DNA of 63,977 bases, filler included, from Bigelowiella natans CCMP2755 (Eukaryota > Protista > Cercozoa), in NCBI GenBank assembly GCA_000320545.1. It is 8 parts of 8 records of this genome, joined end to end, with 100 filler letters (N's around TTAATTAATTAA, not from the genome) between each part and the next. Parts side by side here need not be neighbours in the genome. Positions count along the whole stretch, not along the records: positions 1 to 30,056 come from ADNK01003209.1; positions 30,157 to 43,853 come from ADNK01001196.1; 6 more parts are not named here. The stretch is one strand, 5' to 3'. Within the stretch, counting starts at the first letter, position 1. The number at the start of each line of letters is the position of its first letter. The position numbers were made by a program, and so were the translations under genes. Shown here in pieces: positions 1 to 37,360 of this stretch. The notes below the pieces were generated by a model. That model was not told the origin of the DNA and ran no database searches. It worked only from the letters and a program-made list of their open reading frames with translations.

Positions 1-149
1 TCCCACACAGTAGGGTCTACTTTAACATCCTCTAGGAGCTCTCACCGATATCATAATTCTATAGGTGACTGATGTTGCGCAAAGGTGACCCTGTTCCCAT
101 CATAGATGTAGTACCGCTTCCTCCCCTTCCTCTAGGTAACCTGCGCGAC

Positions 150-237
150 CAAGCGCGTCGTGTGGTGCAAGCAAAGTGCTGCACTTTTCACAACCCCGTC
201 GTCACCGGGTTTGACGGAGCTGTGTGGATCGCAGCAC
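150..237. repeat. Hairpin-forming dispersed repeat, copy 1
   Basis: The 31-nt core CCCCGTCGTCACCGGGTTTGACGGAGCTGTG (194-224) is identical to 5017-5047. Upstream AAGCGCGTCG..GCAAAG(T/C)GCTGCACT is also shared. Stems are CCGTC/GACGG and outer GTGCTGC (176-182)/GCAGCAC (231-237). Confidence 0.85.
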
Positions 238-520
238 CGATCGAAATTGTCAGAATTTTCGGCCTTTTTTGACTCACCTAGAACACTTGCTCAACTCGCC
301 TACTTGTGTCTTGTGTCTGTGTGCGAAGCGGGCATCGAGGTTCTGAAATGAAGCTGCGCATGCGCTTGCAAGCACGCACGTGCCGTGGCATCCACATTGT
401 CAGCGGTGTGGCCGCGCCACCCACGATTGAGGAGCTGTCGCAACTAGCATGCGCACGCCCGTTGATGCTGCATGCTGCGCTGTGCGCATCACTGCGTGCT
501 GCGCTGTGCACCTGCGCATG

Positions 521-725
521 GAAGTTCTCAGAACTTCGAGAACCTTCCAGAGAATTCGAGAACATTCCGGAAGCTACGAGAATCTTCCACAATGTTCGAG
601 AATTCTCCAGAAGTTTCGAGAATTCTCCGGAAGCTTCGAGAGCGTTCCGGAAGCTTCGGGAATCTTCCAGAACACTCGAGAGAATTCGAGAGAATTCTTG
701 TGTTCTGGAAGATTCGAGAATCTTC
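521..725. promoter_or_regulatory. Array of heat-shock-element-like inverted nGAAn pentamers
   Basis: TTC and GAA alternate at exact 5-bp spacing from 535 to 697: 33 positions, 24 perfect and 9 single-mismatch by manual count. Five more perfect units follow at 703-725. Spacer dinucleotides vary. HSF binding is inferred from the consensus only. Confidence 0.7.
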
Positions 726-2331
726 ACGAATGCGCCGCGAATGCGCCGGAACCCAACGTGCATGCACATGCATGCAGCGCAAGTTCTCAGGTCATCAGAA
801 TTCAAACGCACACAGGAGCGCGTGTTGACTTGGTGACATCAACAACACAGTCCCGCGCACAAAAGCTAAGCAGCTACCGCAAGCCCGCCAAAACACATGC
901 ATGTCTAGGTGCAGCCACAAGTGCACACACGGCTACCACAGCCAGGCCCGGGCGTGATCTGCACGTGACCCCGGATTTTCGTTGCAAAGTCCACTTTGCG
1001 CGCGCGTGCATTTCGATTTTTTCACACGCACACATTGTGTCTGAGTGCGATGTCGGTTGCACGTGTGACGTGGGACGTGGGACCTTCACGTTGCACGCGT
1101 TCCACAGTTCAGCACTGAACGAATTGCGCTTCAAATTTTTGTGACGCCTCTAGCTCGGTTTTGTCAATTTTTGTTTCCATGTTTGTTCAACATTGGCACG
1201 AATTTCGTTCGTCCTTTCAATGTTCGTCAAAACCTCAAAAAAGCATGTTCATGACAGACATGCAACGTGTTGCATGCATTGCACATGCACCATGTTGCTG
1301 TGTCGCTTACGTTTTGACCACACTTTGTCGAAAGTGTGGATTTTTGCAGCCCGCAACCCACTACAATAGACAAAGTACATGTCACATGTATATCACATAT
1401 ATTACATGTACGTGTGTCTATAGTCACTTGTCATGTGTTTGTGGTCACGTGCACGCGCTGCATGTGCTGCGCTTGCCAACAATGTAGTCCAGTCGTTGTG
1501 CGGCCACGCACGATCAAAAATCAAAAAGTGAACCTGAAAACACCACGCTTGAGCACATGACCATCCTGATGGACACTGGGACAGCCGGGAGCACCAGGCA
1601 TGACGAAAATGAGAAAGTTGCGAAATTTTGAGGTTGGTGACTTCGAAATTTTGCGCTCTTTTTCAGGCCTCGATCGCAAATTTTGCTAGTAGATCACTTG
1701 TCACAAATTGAGCTCCGCCAGCCCATTTCGATCAAAATTGAGTTTTTTTCTCGAATCAAGCCAAAATCACAGACACGTAACATCATGTGTGCATTACATG
1801 TGCTATTACTATGTCTATTATGAGTATGCGTGTTCTTTTTTGCACACAAATCATGTGCAGTGCCGCTGCGTTGATTCGCAGTTCTTGCAGGAAACATGCG
1901 AAACCGTGAAATTCCCGGGTTATTTCGCCTAGTTGTGAATGCTACGTGCCTGCAAACGCATGCAGCTCATTCATCGCATTGTTGTTGCTGTACGCCCGCC
2001 TCCTTCAGTTAGATCTAGACCCTTCTCATGTGGGTGCTGCATGAACACAAACGCATGCGGCTTCACCTCTTTGCTGCCATCCTCTCTTAATCAGATCTAT
2101 GGCAAGGTCAATCATTCTGCTACATTCGGTAACTTTAAAGATATTGGATTCTTACGGTAGCGTGGTGCTACTCATTTACATTCCATGTCAATTCATTGTG
2201 TTAATAATTTCTAGGTTAAGGGTCGGCTGATGCTGTGCTTTACCTCACACAGCCTAATGTGACGACAAAGAGATTCCAAGATCTCGAAGACTCTTCTACT
2301 AAGCTAATAGGAAGTCCTAGCCATATAATCT

Positions 2332-34097: not shown

Positions 34098-34223
34098 ATG
34101 CACATGATTAATTGTACAAATAAGAAATTGGTTTTATCGCAATATTTCTGAGAACATGCCACATTCATTGTAAAAGGCACGTATCATAAATCAACTAAAT
34201 ATTATAATATTTTAGACTCTTTC

Positions 34224-34291
<68 letters not shown>

Positions 34292-36038
34292 CCCCCTCAC
34301 TTTTTGCTCTCTCTTTTCAATGTGCGGTGATGTAGGTTTTCATCCATTTAATTACTGTATTCTTTAGGTATGGCTGGCGGCACACATGGAAAAGAAGCTG
34401 ACGAAAAACTTCGTTCTTGAAATCAACATTGCTGAGCATGTTAAGACCATCCTGGACCCTCACACCCCTCTAGCTTTGCGCTTGTCGGGCCAATTGTTGC
34501 TCGGACTAGTAAATATATATTCTCGGAAAACTCGCTATCTTGCCGATGACTGTACTTCAGCATTTTCAAATATCCAAGTAGTTTTCCGCACTCAAGCTGC
34601 GGTTGATATGCCAGAGGATGCGAAAGTAAACGATGCTGCGATCACGATGACTGCCAACTTTGACGATCTAGATTTCGAGATTGAGGATTACTCTATTGAG
34701 GATCTGAGAGTATTCCATGATAATCTCGCAACGAACGAATTCAACATCACGAGGGAGTCTAAGTTTTCCCAAGCAGCCTCACGTCGCCAATCGAAGGGAG
34801 GGGCAGAAAGTGAATCAGATATTGAGCAGCCTCGTCAAGCAGAAGACCCAACAAGGATGGATGATTTCGACATCGATATGGGCGGGGGGGATCAACTAGC
34901 TCTTGCCTTTGATTTGAACGAGACAGAGCAGAGTAATTTGGAGTTTGACGCAGAAATGTCGACTATGAATGCAATTCCCGCTGAGGATCTTGACGGGCTT
35001 GACGACGGAGCACTCAAGGAGAACAACTTTCCTTCGGATAAGAACGCCGAAAATAGAGAAGAGGAGATAGAACTTGATCTCGACTTTCCACCAGAGGATG
35101 AAAAGGATTTGGCGGTATCAGCAAATGACGAAACGAAGGAAATCAAAGTCAGGCAAAAGCGCACCAGGAAGAGGAGGAGGCAAACAATTGATGCCACAGT
35201 CGAAATATCAGCAGAGCAGATTAAAAAACAATTGCAAGACACCTCTTCACTGTGCCGTCCACGAAAAGTCGATGAAAGAGTAGTTAATCCAAAGAAAGCT
35301 CGTAAATCATCTTCCAAACGCGCGCTCGACTTCTATCTTGGCCAAAATCTTGCTCAAGGGTTGCTCGAGGCTGTCACAAACAAAATTAGAAAGGCTCTAG
35401 AGAAGTCTTTGGAAAAGAAAGAAGATAATGGTGAGGCTGCAGATGATAATAACCTCGAAGAAAAGGTCCCTGATGAAGAATTTCCTGAGTTTGACATCGC
35501 TGGTCAACTAGACGGTCTAGACGGTCTAGACACCACCGTAGGAGGGGGTCTTAATGATTCCACAATGGGTGGGGGTGACATATCTCTCGAAATTGACAAC
35601 CACGGAATTAGGGAGCATAATAACCAAGAAAATGAAGAGGAGGAGGAGGAGGAGGAGGAAGGCCACAGCAGTGCTGATGGGAAAGCTGCGGACCGCTTAA
35701 AACGAATGTACAATTTTCTTAAGCAAAAAATGACCGGGAAAACTGAGATCACTTTCAAAGATCTAGTCGGCAAGGCTTCACGGAAGGCTGCTGCTGGTGT
35801 TTTCCATGGTAATAATAGATCAATGCATGCACAAGCTTCTTTGATGTGATATAGACAACAATATGCTGCTTTAGTAGTATTTGTACATATTTTAAACGTC
35901 CTCTCCCCCTTCCCACCAAACGCAGAAATCCTTGTCCTAAAAACAAGAGGCATGATCAAGGCCACCCAAGACAAACCATACGGTGCTATTGAGATATGCA
36001 AAGCAAAGTCCTTTAATAAAGGATTAAGTTCGCAATGA
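33762..36038 (+). CDS. RAD21: Cohesin alpha-kleisin RAD21/SCC1 (Rad21/Rec8 family); exons 33762-33809, 34368-35808, 35926-36038
   Basis: N-terminus MFFSQYIIVKKGPLNK|VWLAAHMEKKLTK..LALRLSGQLLLGLVNIYSRKTRYL. C-terminal winged helix SRKAAAGVFH|EILVLK..QDKPYGAI. Confidence 0.93.
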
Positions 36039-36239
36039 ATAAATAAAATTGTCCAGCAATAAAAGTATGTCTTCAAATAGAGAGCTTTCGAAGTCCGTCT
36101 ATAATCTTCATCACCAATCCTGGCTGACAGAAGACAACAAATAAGAAGGCCTTGTGTTACTTTTGATGATTAATTTAAGTAACGAAAATGTAATAGAATT
36201 AAATCTTATTGTTCTTATTTGCCAACCAGTTTTCCGTGT

Positions 36240-37360
36240 TGGTGCGATGATCGCAAGGATTCAGCATGTACGCATGATGAGTGCACTTAATGACTGTTGT
36301 ATCAAGGTGCATTGCCGCCTAGCCCATCAATTGTCCATGCAAGCACCAGCATGGCTAGATGGCATAGCTCTAGAGCTGCATCTTGGGAACATTTAGCTAG
36401 TTAGGCATAGTCGTTGTATTGGCAGTGTGCGTACTACTGCTTGCATTACAATGATGGCTAGATCGTATCGAAGCGCACGTGCTAGCTAGCTAGCGCTATT
36501 ATAGAGCGTGCGACACGACATGCTAACGTGCATGCATGAGGTCTCGCATGGACGTGCTAGCGCTACTAGGCTAGAGCGTGCTAGCGTGGTTCAACGTCGT
36601 GCGTGCAGTCTAGCTAGCGCAGTGCCGCGAGCTAGCGAGTCTAAGCCAGCGCAGCTACGCGCTATGTTCGCACGTGCGTACGACATATTGTTAGCTACTA
36701 GTTAGATTGCACGGAATGATGTTGTCCAGATTGAGGCCGGCAGCGAGCTCGAATCAAAGTACATATCGACGTGCGAGCTAGCGTGTGCACGCACGCACAT
36801 GTGCAATGACTTTTAGAATATGATTGTTAGAATGAACTATGCATGACATAATGCATAGGCTGAGGCCTGACTCGGTCGTCACAATACAAGCTCTAGTCCA
36901 CACTAGCACTAGTAGAGCATGCTATAACGCATGCTGTCTAGCTGTGCATGATGAAATATTATGATGCTGTGGTGGATGTATGGACAAGGTACGTATCGTA
37001 CGTCATCTTCATTCCAGCGCTACGAATGCGCTACGATCGACGAAGGTCACACGCAAGCTCCACATAGAAGAAAGTCGATTCGAAGCTACATCTAAGGCTA
37101 GGCTCGGCTATAATCATGGCTGTAGCGGCATTGCAGGCTAGCAGGCCGATAGCAGTCCATAGTGGTGCTAGTAGCCCGCATGTATCTTATATTGGCATCA
37201 AATTGCGCAGAGATTCGAATAAAGCTCTGCTAGCTGCCATCAACGATATAACGCTTCCTTATGCGATTGGGCGATCGACCAGGATAGTCATACCGCATTC
37301 GCTCTACATCGGGACATATCTCTATATCTAGTTTTACCATTCATGACATGTGCATATGCA
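36240..37360. other. CTAG/AGCT/TGCA-rich convergent intergenic tract T6
   Basis: Lies between the RAD21 stop and the 3' end of the next minus-strand gene. Many GCTAGC, GCATGC and GTGCAC words. Confidence 0.6.

What the first reader, a model, noticed from the sequence alone, without database searches (positions are those of the whole stretch)
140..37360. Head-to-head gene pairs separated by a distinctive spacer at every tail-to-tail junction
Seen: genes run (-,+) in pairs: PAN-A/PAN-B, 3xCys/SRPBCC, TDP2/DCAF7, LMBRD1/AIG1 and AVT1/RAD21. All five fully visible convergent junctions (about 4445-6000, 9270-9990, 15560-16370, 25860-26530, 36240-37360), plus the 3' flank 140-2070, switch to a different sequence style. 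It is rich in palindromic TGCA, CATG, CTAG, AGCT, GCGC and ACGT, with few GGG/CCC runs and none of the microsatellites that fill the introns. Divergent promoters (7210-7780, 11460-12240, 23790-24420, 32700-33760) do not look like this. Most spacers are not alignable to each other by eye, so the shared feature is composition. This was judged by eye, not counted. Known analogies: convergent strand-switch regions carry base J in kinetoplastids, form domain boundaries in dinoflagellates and collect cohesin in yeast. Inference: an undescribed terminator/boundary chromatin class with its own mutational signature. C>T at CG gives TGCA/CATG, and C>T at the second C of CC turns CCGG into CTAG and GGCC into AGCT. 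Alternatives are unrepaired UV dipyrimidine damage or preferred transposon landing zones.
Basis: partly seen in the sequence, partly recalled or inferred. Interest (0 to 1): 0.78.

Follow-up and report, generated by a model that had tools for sequence, protein, structure and literature searches.

The report
Palindrome-rich spacers between converging algal genes
In a chlorarachniophyte alga, the DNA between genes that point towards each other has its own palindrome-rich, CC/GG-poor style, likely built from transposon debris reworked by tiny 4-base duplications rather than by C-to-T decay alone, and no boundary or terminator role has been shown.

Summary
All six spacers are CC/GG-poor (rho 0.44-0.60; four divergent regions 0.91-1.31) and GC-, CA/TG-rich. 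Each held-out spacer outscores 108 of 108 other 500-bp windows. RNA 3' tags or Pfam support the gene directions.

The proposed C>T mechanism is insufficient. Purine/pyrimidine alternation is 0.54-0.63 against 0.44-0.48, and transitions cannot change it. Spacers also hold excess tandem 4-mers (GCAT, GCTA classes) and 8-bp palindromes, which simulated substitution-only models miss and a 4-bp inverted-duplication model reproduces.

Spacer 1 and half of spacer 2 are multicopy repeats, including a ~430-bp element with 17-bp inverted ends. Spacers 3, 6 and the rest of 2 appear single-copy, yet resemble decayed repeat composition.

Best reading (0.5): a transposon landing zone and graveyard in promoter-free DNA. 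No tandem junction is visible, so 'convergent-specific' is untested. The 'AVT1' end at spacer 5 is a Kir channel. No chromatin data were available.

The parts
1..139 (.). Piece of a very high-copy repeat, not in spacer style; cut by the window edge
   Evidence: Contig depths up to the 25,000 cap vs about 75-90 baseline; CC retained
140..2070 (.). Spacer 1 (3' flank of PAN-A): nest of multicopy repeats in spacer style
   Evidence: Summed depth 368-35,689 per 400-bp bin in three DNA runs; rho CC 0.59
171..224 (+). Repeat end shared with the spacer-2 element
   Evidence: 91% identity over 55 nt to 4993-5047
515..734 (.). Tandem array of 10/20-bp palindromic units inside the repeat nest; several CCGG units read CCAG
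4445..6000 (.). Spacer 2 (PAN-B / 3xCys): 4445-5200 multicopy, 5201-6000 about single-copy
   Evidence: Depth 5,581-14,374 vs 58-199; RNA 0-0.09 in 5201-6000
4617..5047 (.). MITE-like element, 17-bp perfect terminal inverted repeats (CAC...GTG ends), flanked by CA on both sides (candidate 2-bp target duplication)
   Evidence: multicopy; no Pfam match in spacer ORFs
9270..9990 (.). Spacer 3 (SRPBCC-labelled gene / TDP2-like): single-copy; left part likely 3' UTR
   Evidence: One contig spans 7157-12000 at baseline depth in 3 of 3 DNA runs at 93% likeness; plus-strand tags 9201-9600
15560..16370 (.). Spacer 4 (DCAF7-like WD40 / LMBR1-like): GCTA- and GCAT-class rich; copy number not tested
25860..26530 (.). 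Spacer 5 (AIG1-like / Kir channel); copy number not tested
36240..37360 (.). Spacer 6 (RAD21 / unnamed minus gene): single-copy; RNA-silent core 36250-36729; right part is a distal 3' UTR
   Evidence: One contig 35670-37900, no second match in the spacer at 80% likeness in 2 of 2 DNA runs; RAD21 poly(A) tail at 36217; minus tags 36730-37449
26631..29840 (-).
   Evidence: P0114 100% identity, IRK_C and Ion_trans_2
34386..36038 (+). RAD21/Rec8-like gene, used to place the organism among chlorarachniophytes

Best explanation
The spacers are promoter-free DNA past the 3' ends of converging genes; two hold multicopy repeats, and all six are likely built from such repeats and then reworked by short inverted or tandem 4-base duplications and C>T decay. 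Shown: the style, the multicopy inverted-repeat element in spacers 1-2, single-copy status of three other stretches, the excess of self-complementary 4-bp tandem units, and 4-bp indels between repeat copies. Inferred: (a) insertions persist here because no promoter is disturbed or because the elements target CA/TG-rich DNA; (b) the single-copy spacers are older debris decayed past recognition; (c) the GCAT- and GCTA-class units arise by slippage, fold-back copying or excision footprints (XY becomes XY+reverse complement+XY); (d) the DNA is CG-methylated and silenced. The style would be a by-product and a mutational record, not a selected signal.
For: Multicopy repeats fill spacer 1 and 4401-5200. 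17-bp TIRs with CA flanks. Young repeat parts already have the style (CC 0.57, GC 1.51, CA 1.63, alternation 0.59). Repeat composition plus plain decay fits the five non-repeat stretches (logL -5233) far better than gene/promoter composition plus CG and CC C>T (-5345). Tandem 4-mers 65 vs 25 expected (z 5.2) and 8-bp palindromes 52 vs 29 (z 4.1) against trinucleotide shuffles. CATGCA/TGCATG 58 in 6811 bp of spacer vs 5 in 3735 bp divergent and 42 in 52,649 bp genic. Of the simulated models only the inverted-duplication one matches tandem 4-mers (14.5 vs 16.6/kb; substitution models 4.0-4.4) and 8-bp palindromes (11.1 vs 13.3; 4.5-5.5). 3 of 10 listed indels in repeat parts are 4 bp; that at 1459 has the TG to TG-CA-TG form. 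Mobile elements are over-represented between convergent genes in bacteria (PMC2942039, abstract). Bigelowiella natans TEs carry H3K9me3 plus H3K27me3 (10.1101/2025.03.17.643675).
Against: Spacer 6, spacer 3 and 5201-6000 show no second copy (80%, 93%, 93% likeness) and no clear long terminal repeats, so their transposon origin is inferred from composition only. The GCTA class is nearly absent from the young repeat parts (0.4/kb vs 5.1/kb). About 86 such hexamers in 6.8 kb is too many for literal excision footprints alone. The simulation's target dinucleotides were chosen after seeing the data, and it overshoots CC (0.65 vs 0.49) and undershoots CG (0.81 vs 1.03). GG transversion models match 4-mer likelihood equally well (-5218 vs -5216). 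The repeats may have the style because they live in the spacers, not the reverse. CG is not depleted. One window, six junctions, no tandem control; spacers 4 and 5 untested for copy number.
Confidence: 0.5

Rival explanations
1. A junction-specific mutational process rewrites any DNA between converging genes. Colliding transcription would cause supercoiling, breaks or hairpins whose repair inserts short templated inverted copies; transposons are later passengers.
For: Three tested stretches are single-copy yet have the strongest style (RNA-silent core of spacer 6: CC 0.37, GC 1.96, alternation 0.64). The style starts just past the poly(A) site; pooled proximal 3' UTRs are ordinary (CC 0.91, alternation 0.48). 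Non-homologous spacers predict one another. The duplication model works from a random start with no repeat input.
Against: Two of six spacers are plainly repeat nests. No tandem control. No break or repair data. The transcribed right part of spacer 6 also has the style (alternation 0.60).
Confidence: 0.25
2. The style is selected: alternating, palindrome-rich DNA acts as a terminator or chromatin boundary (binding sites, modified bases, cohesin stop).
For: Present at 6 of 6 convergent flanks and 0 of 5 divergent regions. Sharp onset after the RAD21 poly(A) site and an RNA-silent core. Convergent sites form boundaries in Symbiodinium (PMC8110479, passages) and loop anchors in Dictyostelium (10.1101/2024.06.12.598618, abstract).
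Against: No shared motif or position across spacers beyond composition. No Rfam match. Folding only z -2.1 on 20 shuffles. Repeats occupy whole spacers. The Symbiodinium sites show a GC dip between long gene arrays, whereas these are GC-richer than the rest of the window and lie between single genes.
Confidence: 0.12
3. Unrepaired guanine damage at GG (GG>TG, GG>GC transversions) in silent DNA produces the CC/GG loss and the alternation.
For: The two best of 48 single context rules (logL -5242, -5244). 4 of 9 transversions between repeat copies fit these two rules (three flagged by the script, one read by me). The 5'-GG oxidation preference is recalled, from no call.
Against: Does not give tandem 4-mers (4.0-4.4 vs 16.6/kb), long palindromes or CTAG (0.6-1.0 vs 3.8). 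Needs 10-20-fold rate increases. The copy-difference counts are too small to be significant.
Confidence: 0.08
4. C>T decay at CG and at the second C of CC (or UV-type YC>T) acting on ordinary DNA makes the style.
For: CpG transitions among copies, and CC/CT variants at 889 and 4960. A four-fold CC>CT term improves the best simulation by about 22 log units.
Against: Cannot change purine/pyrimidine alternation. logL -5339 to -5365; free 16-context version -5274. CTAG is 3.8-fold enriched while CTAA, CTAC and CTAT are 0.7-1.1. CG is not depleted; spacers are GC-richer than their surroundings.
Confidence: 0.05

Closest known systems
MITEs / non-autonomous CMC (CACTA-Mirage-Chapaev) or Transib-like DNA transposons
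   Same: Short non-coding multicopy element with CAC...GTG inverted ends and a candidate 2-bp target duplication; CMC elements have 2-4 bp duplications (10.64898/2026.08.26.747230, passages).
   Different: No transposase seen, so the superfamily is unassigned; that paper warns that ends and duplication length do not classify. Accounts for only 1.5 of 6 spacers directly.
Enrichment of mobile elements between convergent genes by selection (PMC2942039, abstract; bacterial IS elements)
   Same: Repeats sit at convergent, not divergent, junctions.
   Different: Eukaryote; here single-copy spacers share a strong sequence style, which that abstract does not describe.
hAT (Ac/Ds) excision footprints with palindromic P-nucleotides (PMC5873905, passages)
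   Same: Short palindromic insertions at a duplicated target; same form as the indel at 1459.
   Different: Footprints are one per excision; here the units occur about every 80 bp and no empty/filled site pair was seen.
Methylation-driven C>T decay of repeats (RIP; Dim2 CpA mutation, PMC8016269, abstract)
   Same: Repeats decay beyond recognition in a silenced compartment.
   Different: CA is enriched, GC content stays at 0.48, and C>T models fit poorly.
Convergent-gene boundaries in Symbiodinium (PMC8110479, passages) and Dictyostelium (10.1101/2024.06.12.598618, abstract); kinetoplastid base J at strand switches (recalled)
   Same: Special properties at sites where transcription converges.
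   Different: Defined by Hi-C or a modified base, neither tested. Symbiodinium sites lie between long gene blocks and show a GC dip; here single genes alternate and GC is higher.

Membership tests
MITE / non-autonomous TIR transposon (4617-5047) | Terminal inverted repeats | tested here: met
   17 nt, 100% complementary, 397 nt apart
MITE / non-autonomous TIR transposon (4617-5047) | High copy number | tested here: met
   Summed depth 5,581-14,374 vs about 75-90 in 3 of 3 DNA runs; not an exact copy number
MITE / non-autonomous TIR transposon (4617-5047) | Target site duplication | tested here: inconclusive
   CA on both flanks of one copy; 2 bp in CA-rich DNA can be chance
MITE / non-autonomous TIR transposon (4617-5047) | No coding capacity | tested here: met
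   0 Pfam families in 7 of 7 spacer 1-2 ORFs of at least 120 aa submitted
CMC/Transib superfamily | Transposase homology of an autonomous partner | not testable with these tools
   No genome held; pattern scans empty
Transposon remnant (spacers 3, 6 and 5201-6000) | Detectable second copy | tested here: not met
   Unbroken or baseline-depth contigs at 93% and 80% likeness; older divergence not excluded
Transposon remnant (spacers 4, 5) | Detectable second copy | not tested
RIP / Dim2-type CpA decay | CA loss with TA gain and falling GC | tested here: not met
   CA/TG 1.49; model logL -5399
CG-methylated repeat DNA | CG>TG/CA differences between copies | tested here: inconclusive
   9 of 17 transitions lie in 7 CG-type sites, but CG rho is 1.0-1.1
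CG-methylated repeat DNA | Direct 5mC signal | not testable with these tools
   No modified-base data
Long 3' UTR | Transcript ends inside or beyond the spacer | tested here: inconclusive
   Main tags end outside spacers 1, 2 and at 36217; minus tags reach 36730 in spacer 6 and plus tags 9201-9600 in spacer 3; one run, 6% read, apparently 3' tags only
Dinoflagellate-type convergent domain boundary | Lies between long unidirectional gene blocks with a GC dip | tested here: not met
   Single genes alternate; spacer GC 0.487 vs 0.426
Dinoflagellate/Dictyostelium-type boundary | Hi-C insulation or cohesin accumulation | not testable with these tools
   No contact or ChIP data
Kinetoplastid base-J strand-switch region | Base J at polycistron ends (recalled) | not testable with these tools
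   No modified-base data; no polycistronic arrays in the window
Structured non-coding RNA | Rfam match | tested here: not met
   0 matches in 1-38000

The most novel reading that the evidence does not exclude
Converging transcription itself drives a local mutational process, templated 4-base inverted duplication at CA/TG and CT/AG, that rewrites any DNA between tail-to-tail genes into palindrome-rich alternating sequence, marking every gene-pair boundary of this genome in the sequence itself.
Probability: 0.25. Interest if true: 0.78.

Novelty: new variant of a known kind. Interest (0 to 1): 0.5.

Why it matters
If the best reading holds, convergent junctions in this alga are a readable record of how silenced repeat DNA decays, with 4-bp inverted duplication rather than C>T as the main author, and the style is a free marker of gene 3' ends for annotation. 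If the novel reading holds, it is a transcription-geometry-dependent mutational signature, testable in silico with existing Bigelowiella natans genome, Hi-C and histone maps if the pattern holds there.

Tried and rejected
No whole genome held, so no genome-wide test. Repeat-end patterns found nothing in viral, metagenome or prokaryote collections. Protein queries found no related loci, so no relative's spacer was seen. Earlier-findings look-ups were empty. Rejected: assembly artefact; spacers as one homologous family; C>T-only, UV-type and RIP-type models; untargeted tandem duplication (-5372, -5344) and untargeted fold-back (-5298); Dcm-like CCWGG decay (CCTAG 0.69 vs GCTAG 8.3) and general CHG decay (ATAG, GTAG, TTAG 0.7-1.1); Rfam RNA; coding remnants; microsatellite absence as a marker. 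One eight-rate transversion fit did not converge sensibly and is not used. The last four columns are mislabelled in my print-out (true order TGCA, CATG, CTAG, AGCT); only its likelihoods and dinucleotide values are used. Metatranscriptome X15 gave only short unrelated matches. Run X21 depth on spacers 1-2 carries other letters in nearly all reads, so it comes from other repeat copies. The 43954-55741 block was considered as an intergenic control and dropped because it appears by eye to hold small exons.

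
Full report
Organism. The RAD21 protein's closest named relatives are chlorarachniophytes (Chlorarachnion-labelled and Amorphochlora records, 39-42% identity), as are those of the channel gene. Bigelowiella natans is plausible (45% GC, PMC12730881 passages), but that paper says microsatellites are largely absent from it while this window is full of them, so the species is not settled. No genome is held; everything below rests on one window plus read laying.

Gene layout. Strand-specific RNA tags in run X21 (about 6% of the run read; apparently a 3'-tag library, inferred from first-mate-only mapping and poly(A) tails) peak at 2001-2400 minus, 4001-4400 plus, 6001-6400 minus, 9201-9600 plus and 10001-10400 minus, and at 36010-36249 plus with a tail at 36217 and 36730-37449 minus. 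Pfam on 30 exon pieces or proteins gave hits for 7: PAN_4 (weak), Exo_endo_phos, WD40, LMBR1 (weak), Far-17a_AIG1 (weak), Ion_trans_2 and Rad21. The SRPBCC and AVT1 labels got no hit. The gene ending at spacer 5 is a Kir channel whose relatives are 599-882 aa, so the gap at 30057-30155 hides its start and the junction to the AVT1-like exons. All 10 visible junctions switch strand, 5 convergent and 5 divergent. PAN-A and PAN-B are an inverted duplicate (84% over 653 nt), so these are not all independent. There is no tandem junction to serve as control.

The observation. Pooled spacers have rho CC 0.53, GC 1.60, CA/TG 1.50, CG 1.06 and GC content 0.487; divergent regions have CC 1.13, GC 1.02. 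A sliding score on microsatellite-masked sequence peaks at the six spacers, with weaker bumps in some introns and one high window at 48001 on a tandem repeat. Trained on five spacers, a trinucleotide model ranks the sixth above 108 of 108 other 500-bp windows in all six rounds, and all five divergent regions score negative. Microsatellites are absent from spacers 4-6 (0 vs 7.1 expected from flanking genes) but also from divergent regions.

What the spacers contain. In three DNA runs, spacer 1 and 4401-5200 draw summed contig depths of 368-35,689 against a baseline near 75-90 (not exact copy numbers). 4617-5047 has perfect 17-bp inverted ends with CA on each flank, and its right end recurs at 171-224. 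In contrast, one contig spans spacer 3, 5201-6000 is near baseline, and spacer 6 lies in one 2.3-kb contig with no second match at 80% likeness. Spacers 4 and 5 were not tested. Of 21 pairwise alignments among seven spacer pieces, one is clear homology (S1/S2a) and one is a marginal 31-bp match (S5/S6, 39 vs maximum 30 in 12 shuffles).

Testing the proposed mechanism. C>T and G>A changes never alter which positions are purines. Purine/pyrimidine alternation is 0.54-0.63 in the spacers, 0.44-0.48 in five divergent regions and 0.46-0.53 in gene regions, so C>T on ordinary DNA cannot make the style. Fits to the 3.9 kb of non-repeat or untested spacer agree. Independent letters give logL -5400; CG plus second-C CC gives -5339; UV-type -5365; RIP-type -5399; 16 free C>T contexts -5274. 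The best of 48 single rules are GG>TG (-5242) and GG>GC (-5244). Starting from the young repeats' composition, plain decay alone reaches -5233, whereas starting from exon and promoter composition the CG+CC model reaches only -5345. These are composite likelihoods of simplified models and rank ideas; they do not prove them.

A duplication signature. Against trinucleotide-preserving shuffles the non-repeat spacers have 65 tandem 4-mer positions vs 25, 52 eight-base palindromes vs 29, and GC recurring at lags 4 and 8 (z 4.3, 4.9); exons show none of this and divergent regions only a mild tandem excess (28 vs 14). The arrays are mostly the self-complementary GCAT class (9 of 26) with GCAC (4) and GCTA (3) next. 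CTAG is enriched 3.8-fold while its non-palindromic siblings are not. Simulated substitution models give 4.0-4.4 tandem 4-mers per kb against 16.6 observed. Adding XY to XY+reverse complement+XY insertions at CA/TG and CT/AG, with two-fold CG and four-fold CC C>T, gives 14.5, matches palindromes, and ties the best likelihood (-5216; best of 96 grid points). Targets were picked after seeing the data, and CC and CG remain off.

Direct differences between repeat copies. One search showed 40 of 77 substitution rows; I used the 26 in repeat parts and left out 14 in paralogous genes or elsewhere. Seventeen are transitions, 9 of them in 7 CG-type sites; two more are CC/CT at the second C; 4 of 9 transversions fit the two GG rules. 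Of 12 indel rows, 10 lie in repeats and 3 of these are 4 bp; the one at 1459 has the TG to TG-CA-TG form. Direction is uncertain and numbers are small.

How it most likely works. Promoter-free DNA between two 3' ends tolerates or attracts small DNA transposons (shown for 1.5 spacers, inferred for the rest). The debris, already CC-poor and alternating, is then reworked by 4-bp inverted or tandem duplications and by CG and some CC C>T (inferred from composition, with thin direct support), until it is single-copy. Silencing is inferred from B. natans, where TEs carry H3K9me3 and H3K27me3. The main rival is that converging transcription itself causes the duplications. The strongest style lies in the single-copy, RNA-silent core of spacer 6, and proximal 3' UTRs are ordinary, which fits either reading. 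A selected terminator or boundary is not excluded but has no positive evidence here.

Literature. Ten full-text searches showed no description of this pattern in chlorarachniophytes; two searches returned nothing, and subscription papers are not covered. Seen: 10.1101/2025.03.17.643675 parts 1-2 of 5 and passages (its figures and supplements, which map marks on TEs, were not visible and may bear on the silencing claim); passages of PMC8887012, PMC12730881, PMC13746701, PMC12477816, PMC8110479, PMC5873905 and 10.64898/2026.08.26.747230; abstracts of PMC2942039, 10.1101/2024.06.12.598618 and PMC8016269. Base J, yeast cohesin at convergent genes and the 5'-GG oxidation preference are recalled, from no call.

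Verdict. New variant of a known kind, interest 0.5; novel reading probability 0.25, interest 0.78.

Noticed in passing
window 1-139: Very high-copy repeat (contig depth at the 25,000 cap) that keeps its CC runs and abuts spacer 1; family unknown.
   Followed up: partly
window 2134-2772, 3762-4411, 6923-7090: PAN-A and PAN-B are an inverted duplicate (84%); the 3xCys gene shares their N-terminal region (87% over 168 nt), so three neighbouring genes form a small family with hydrophobic N-termini.
   Followed up: partly
window 26631-29840 and gap 30057-30155: Kir channel whose chlorarachniophyte relatives P0115 and P0117 appear to carry two channel repeats in one chain; the window's 5' half is in the gap.
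   Followed up: partly
window 43954-55741: 11.8-kb block at about 35% GC, very rich in microsatellites and CG-poor, with small apparent minus-strand exons; possibly one gene with very long introns.
   Followed up: no
window 401-1200 and 4801-5200: RNA tags from other copies of the spacer repeats are abundant, so some copies lie in or near transcript 3' ends elsewhere.
   Followed up: no
window 55212-55346 vs 55588-55722; 58453-58682 vs 58790-59019: Inverted near-duplicates (92-93%) beside assembly gaps; may be assembly errors.
   Followed up: no
window 2071-11459: Five genes without any microsatellite, against 75 arrays in the genes of 12241-43850.
   Followed up: partly
window 26460-26490 vs 36934-36961: A 31-bp match on opposite strands between spacers 5 and 6, scoring above 12 shuffles; possible decayed shared repeat.
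   Followed up: partly
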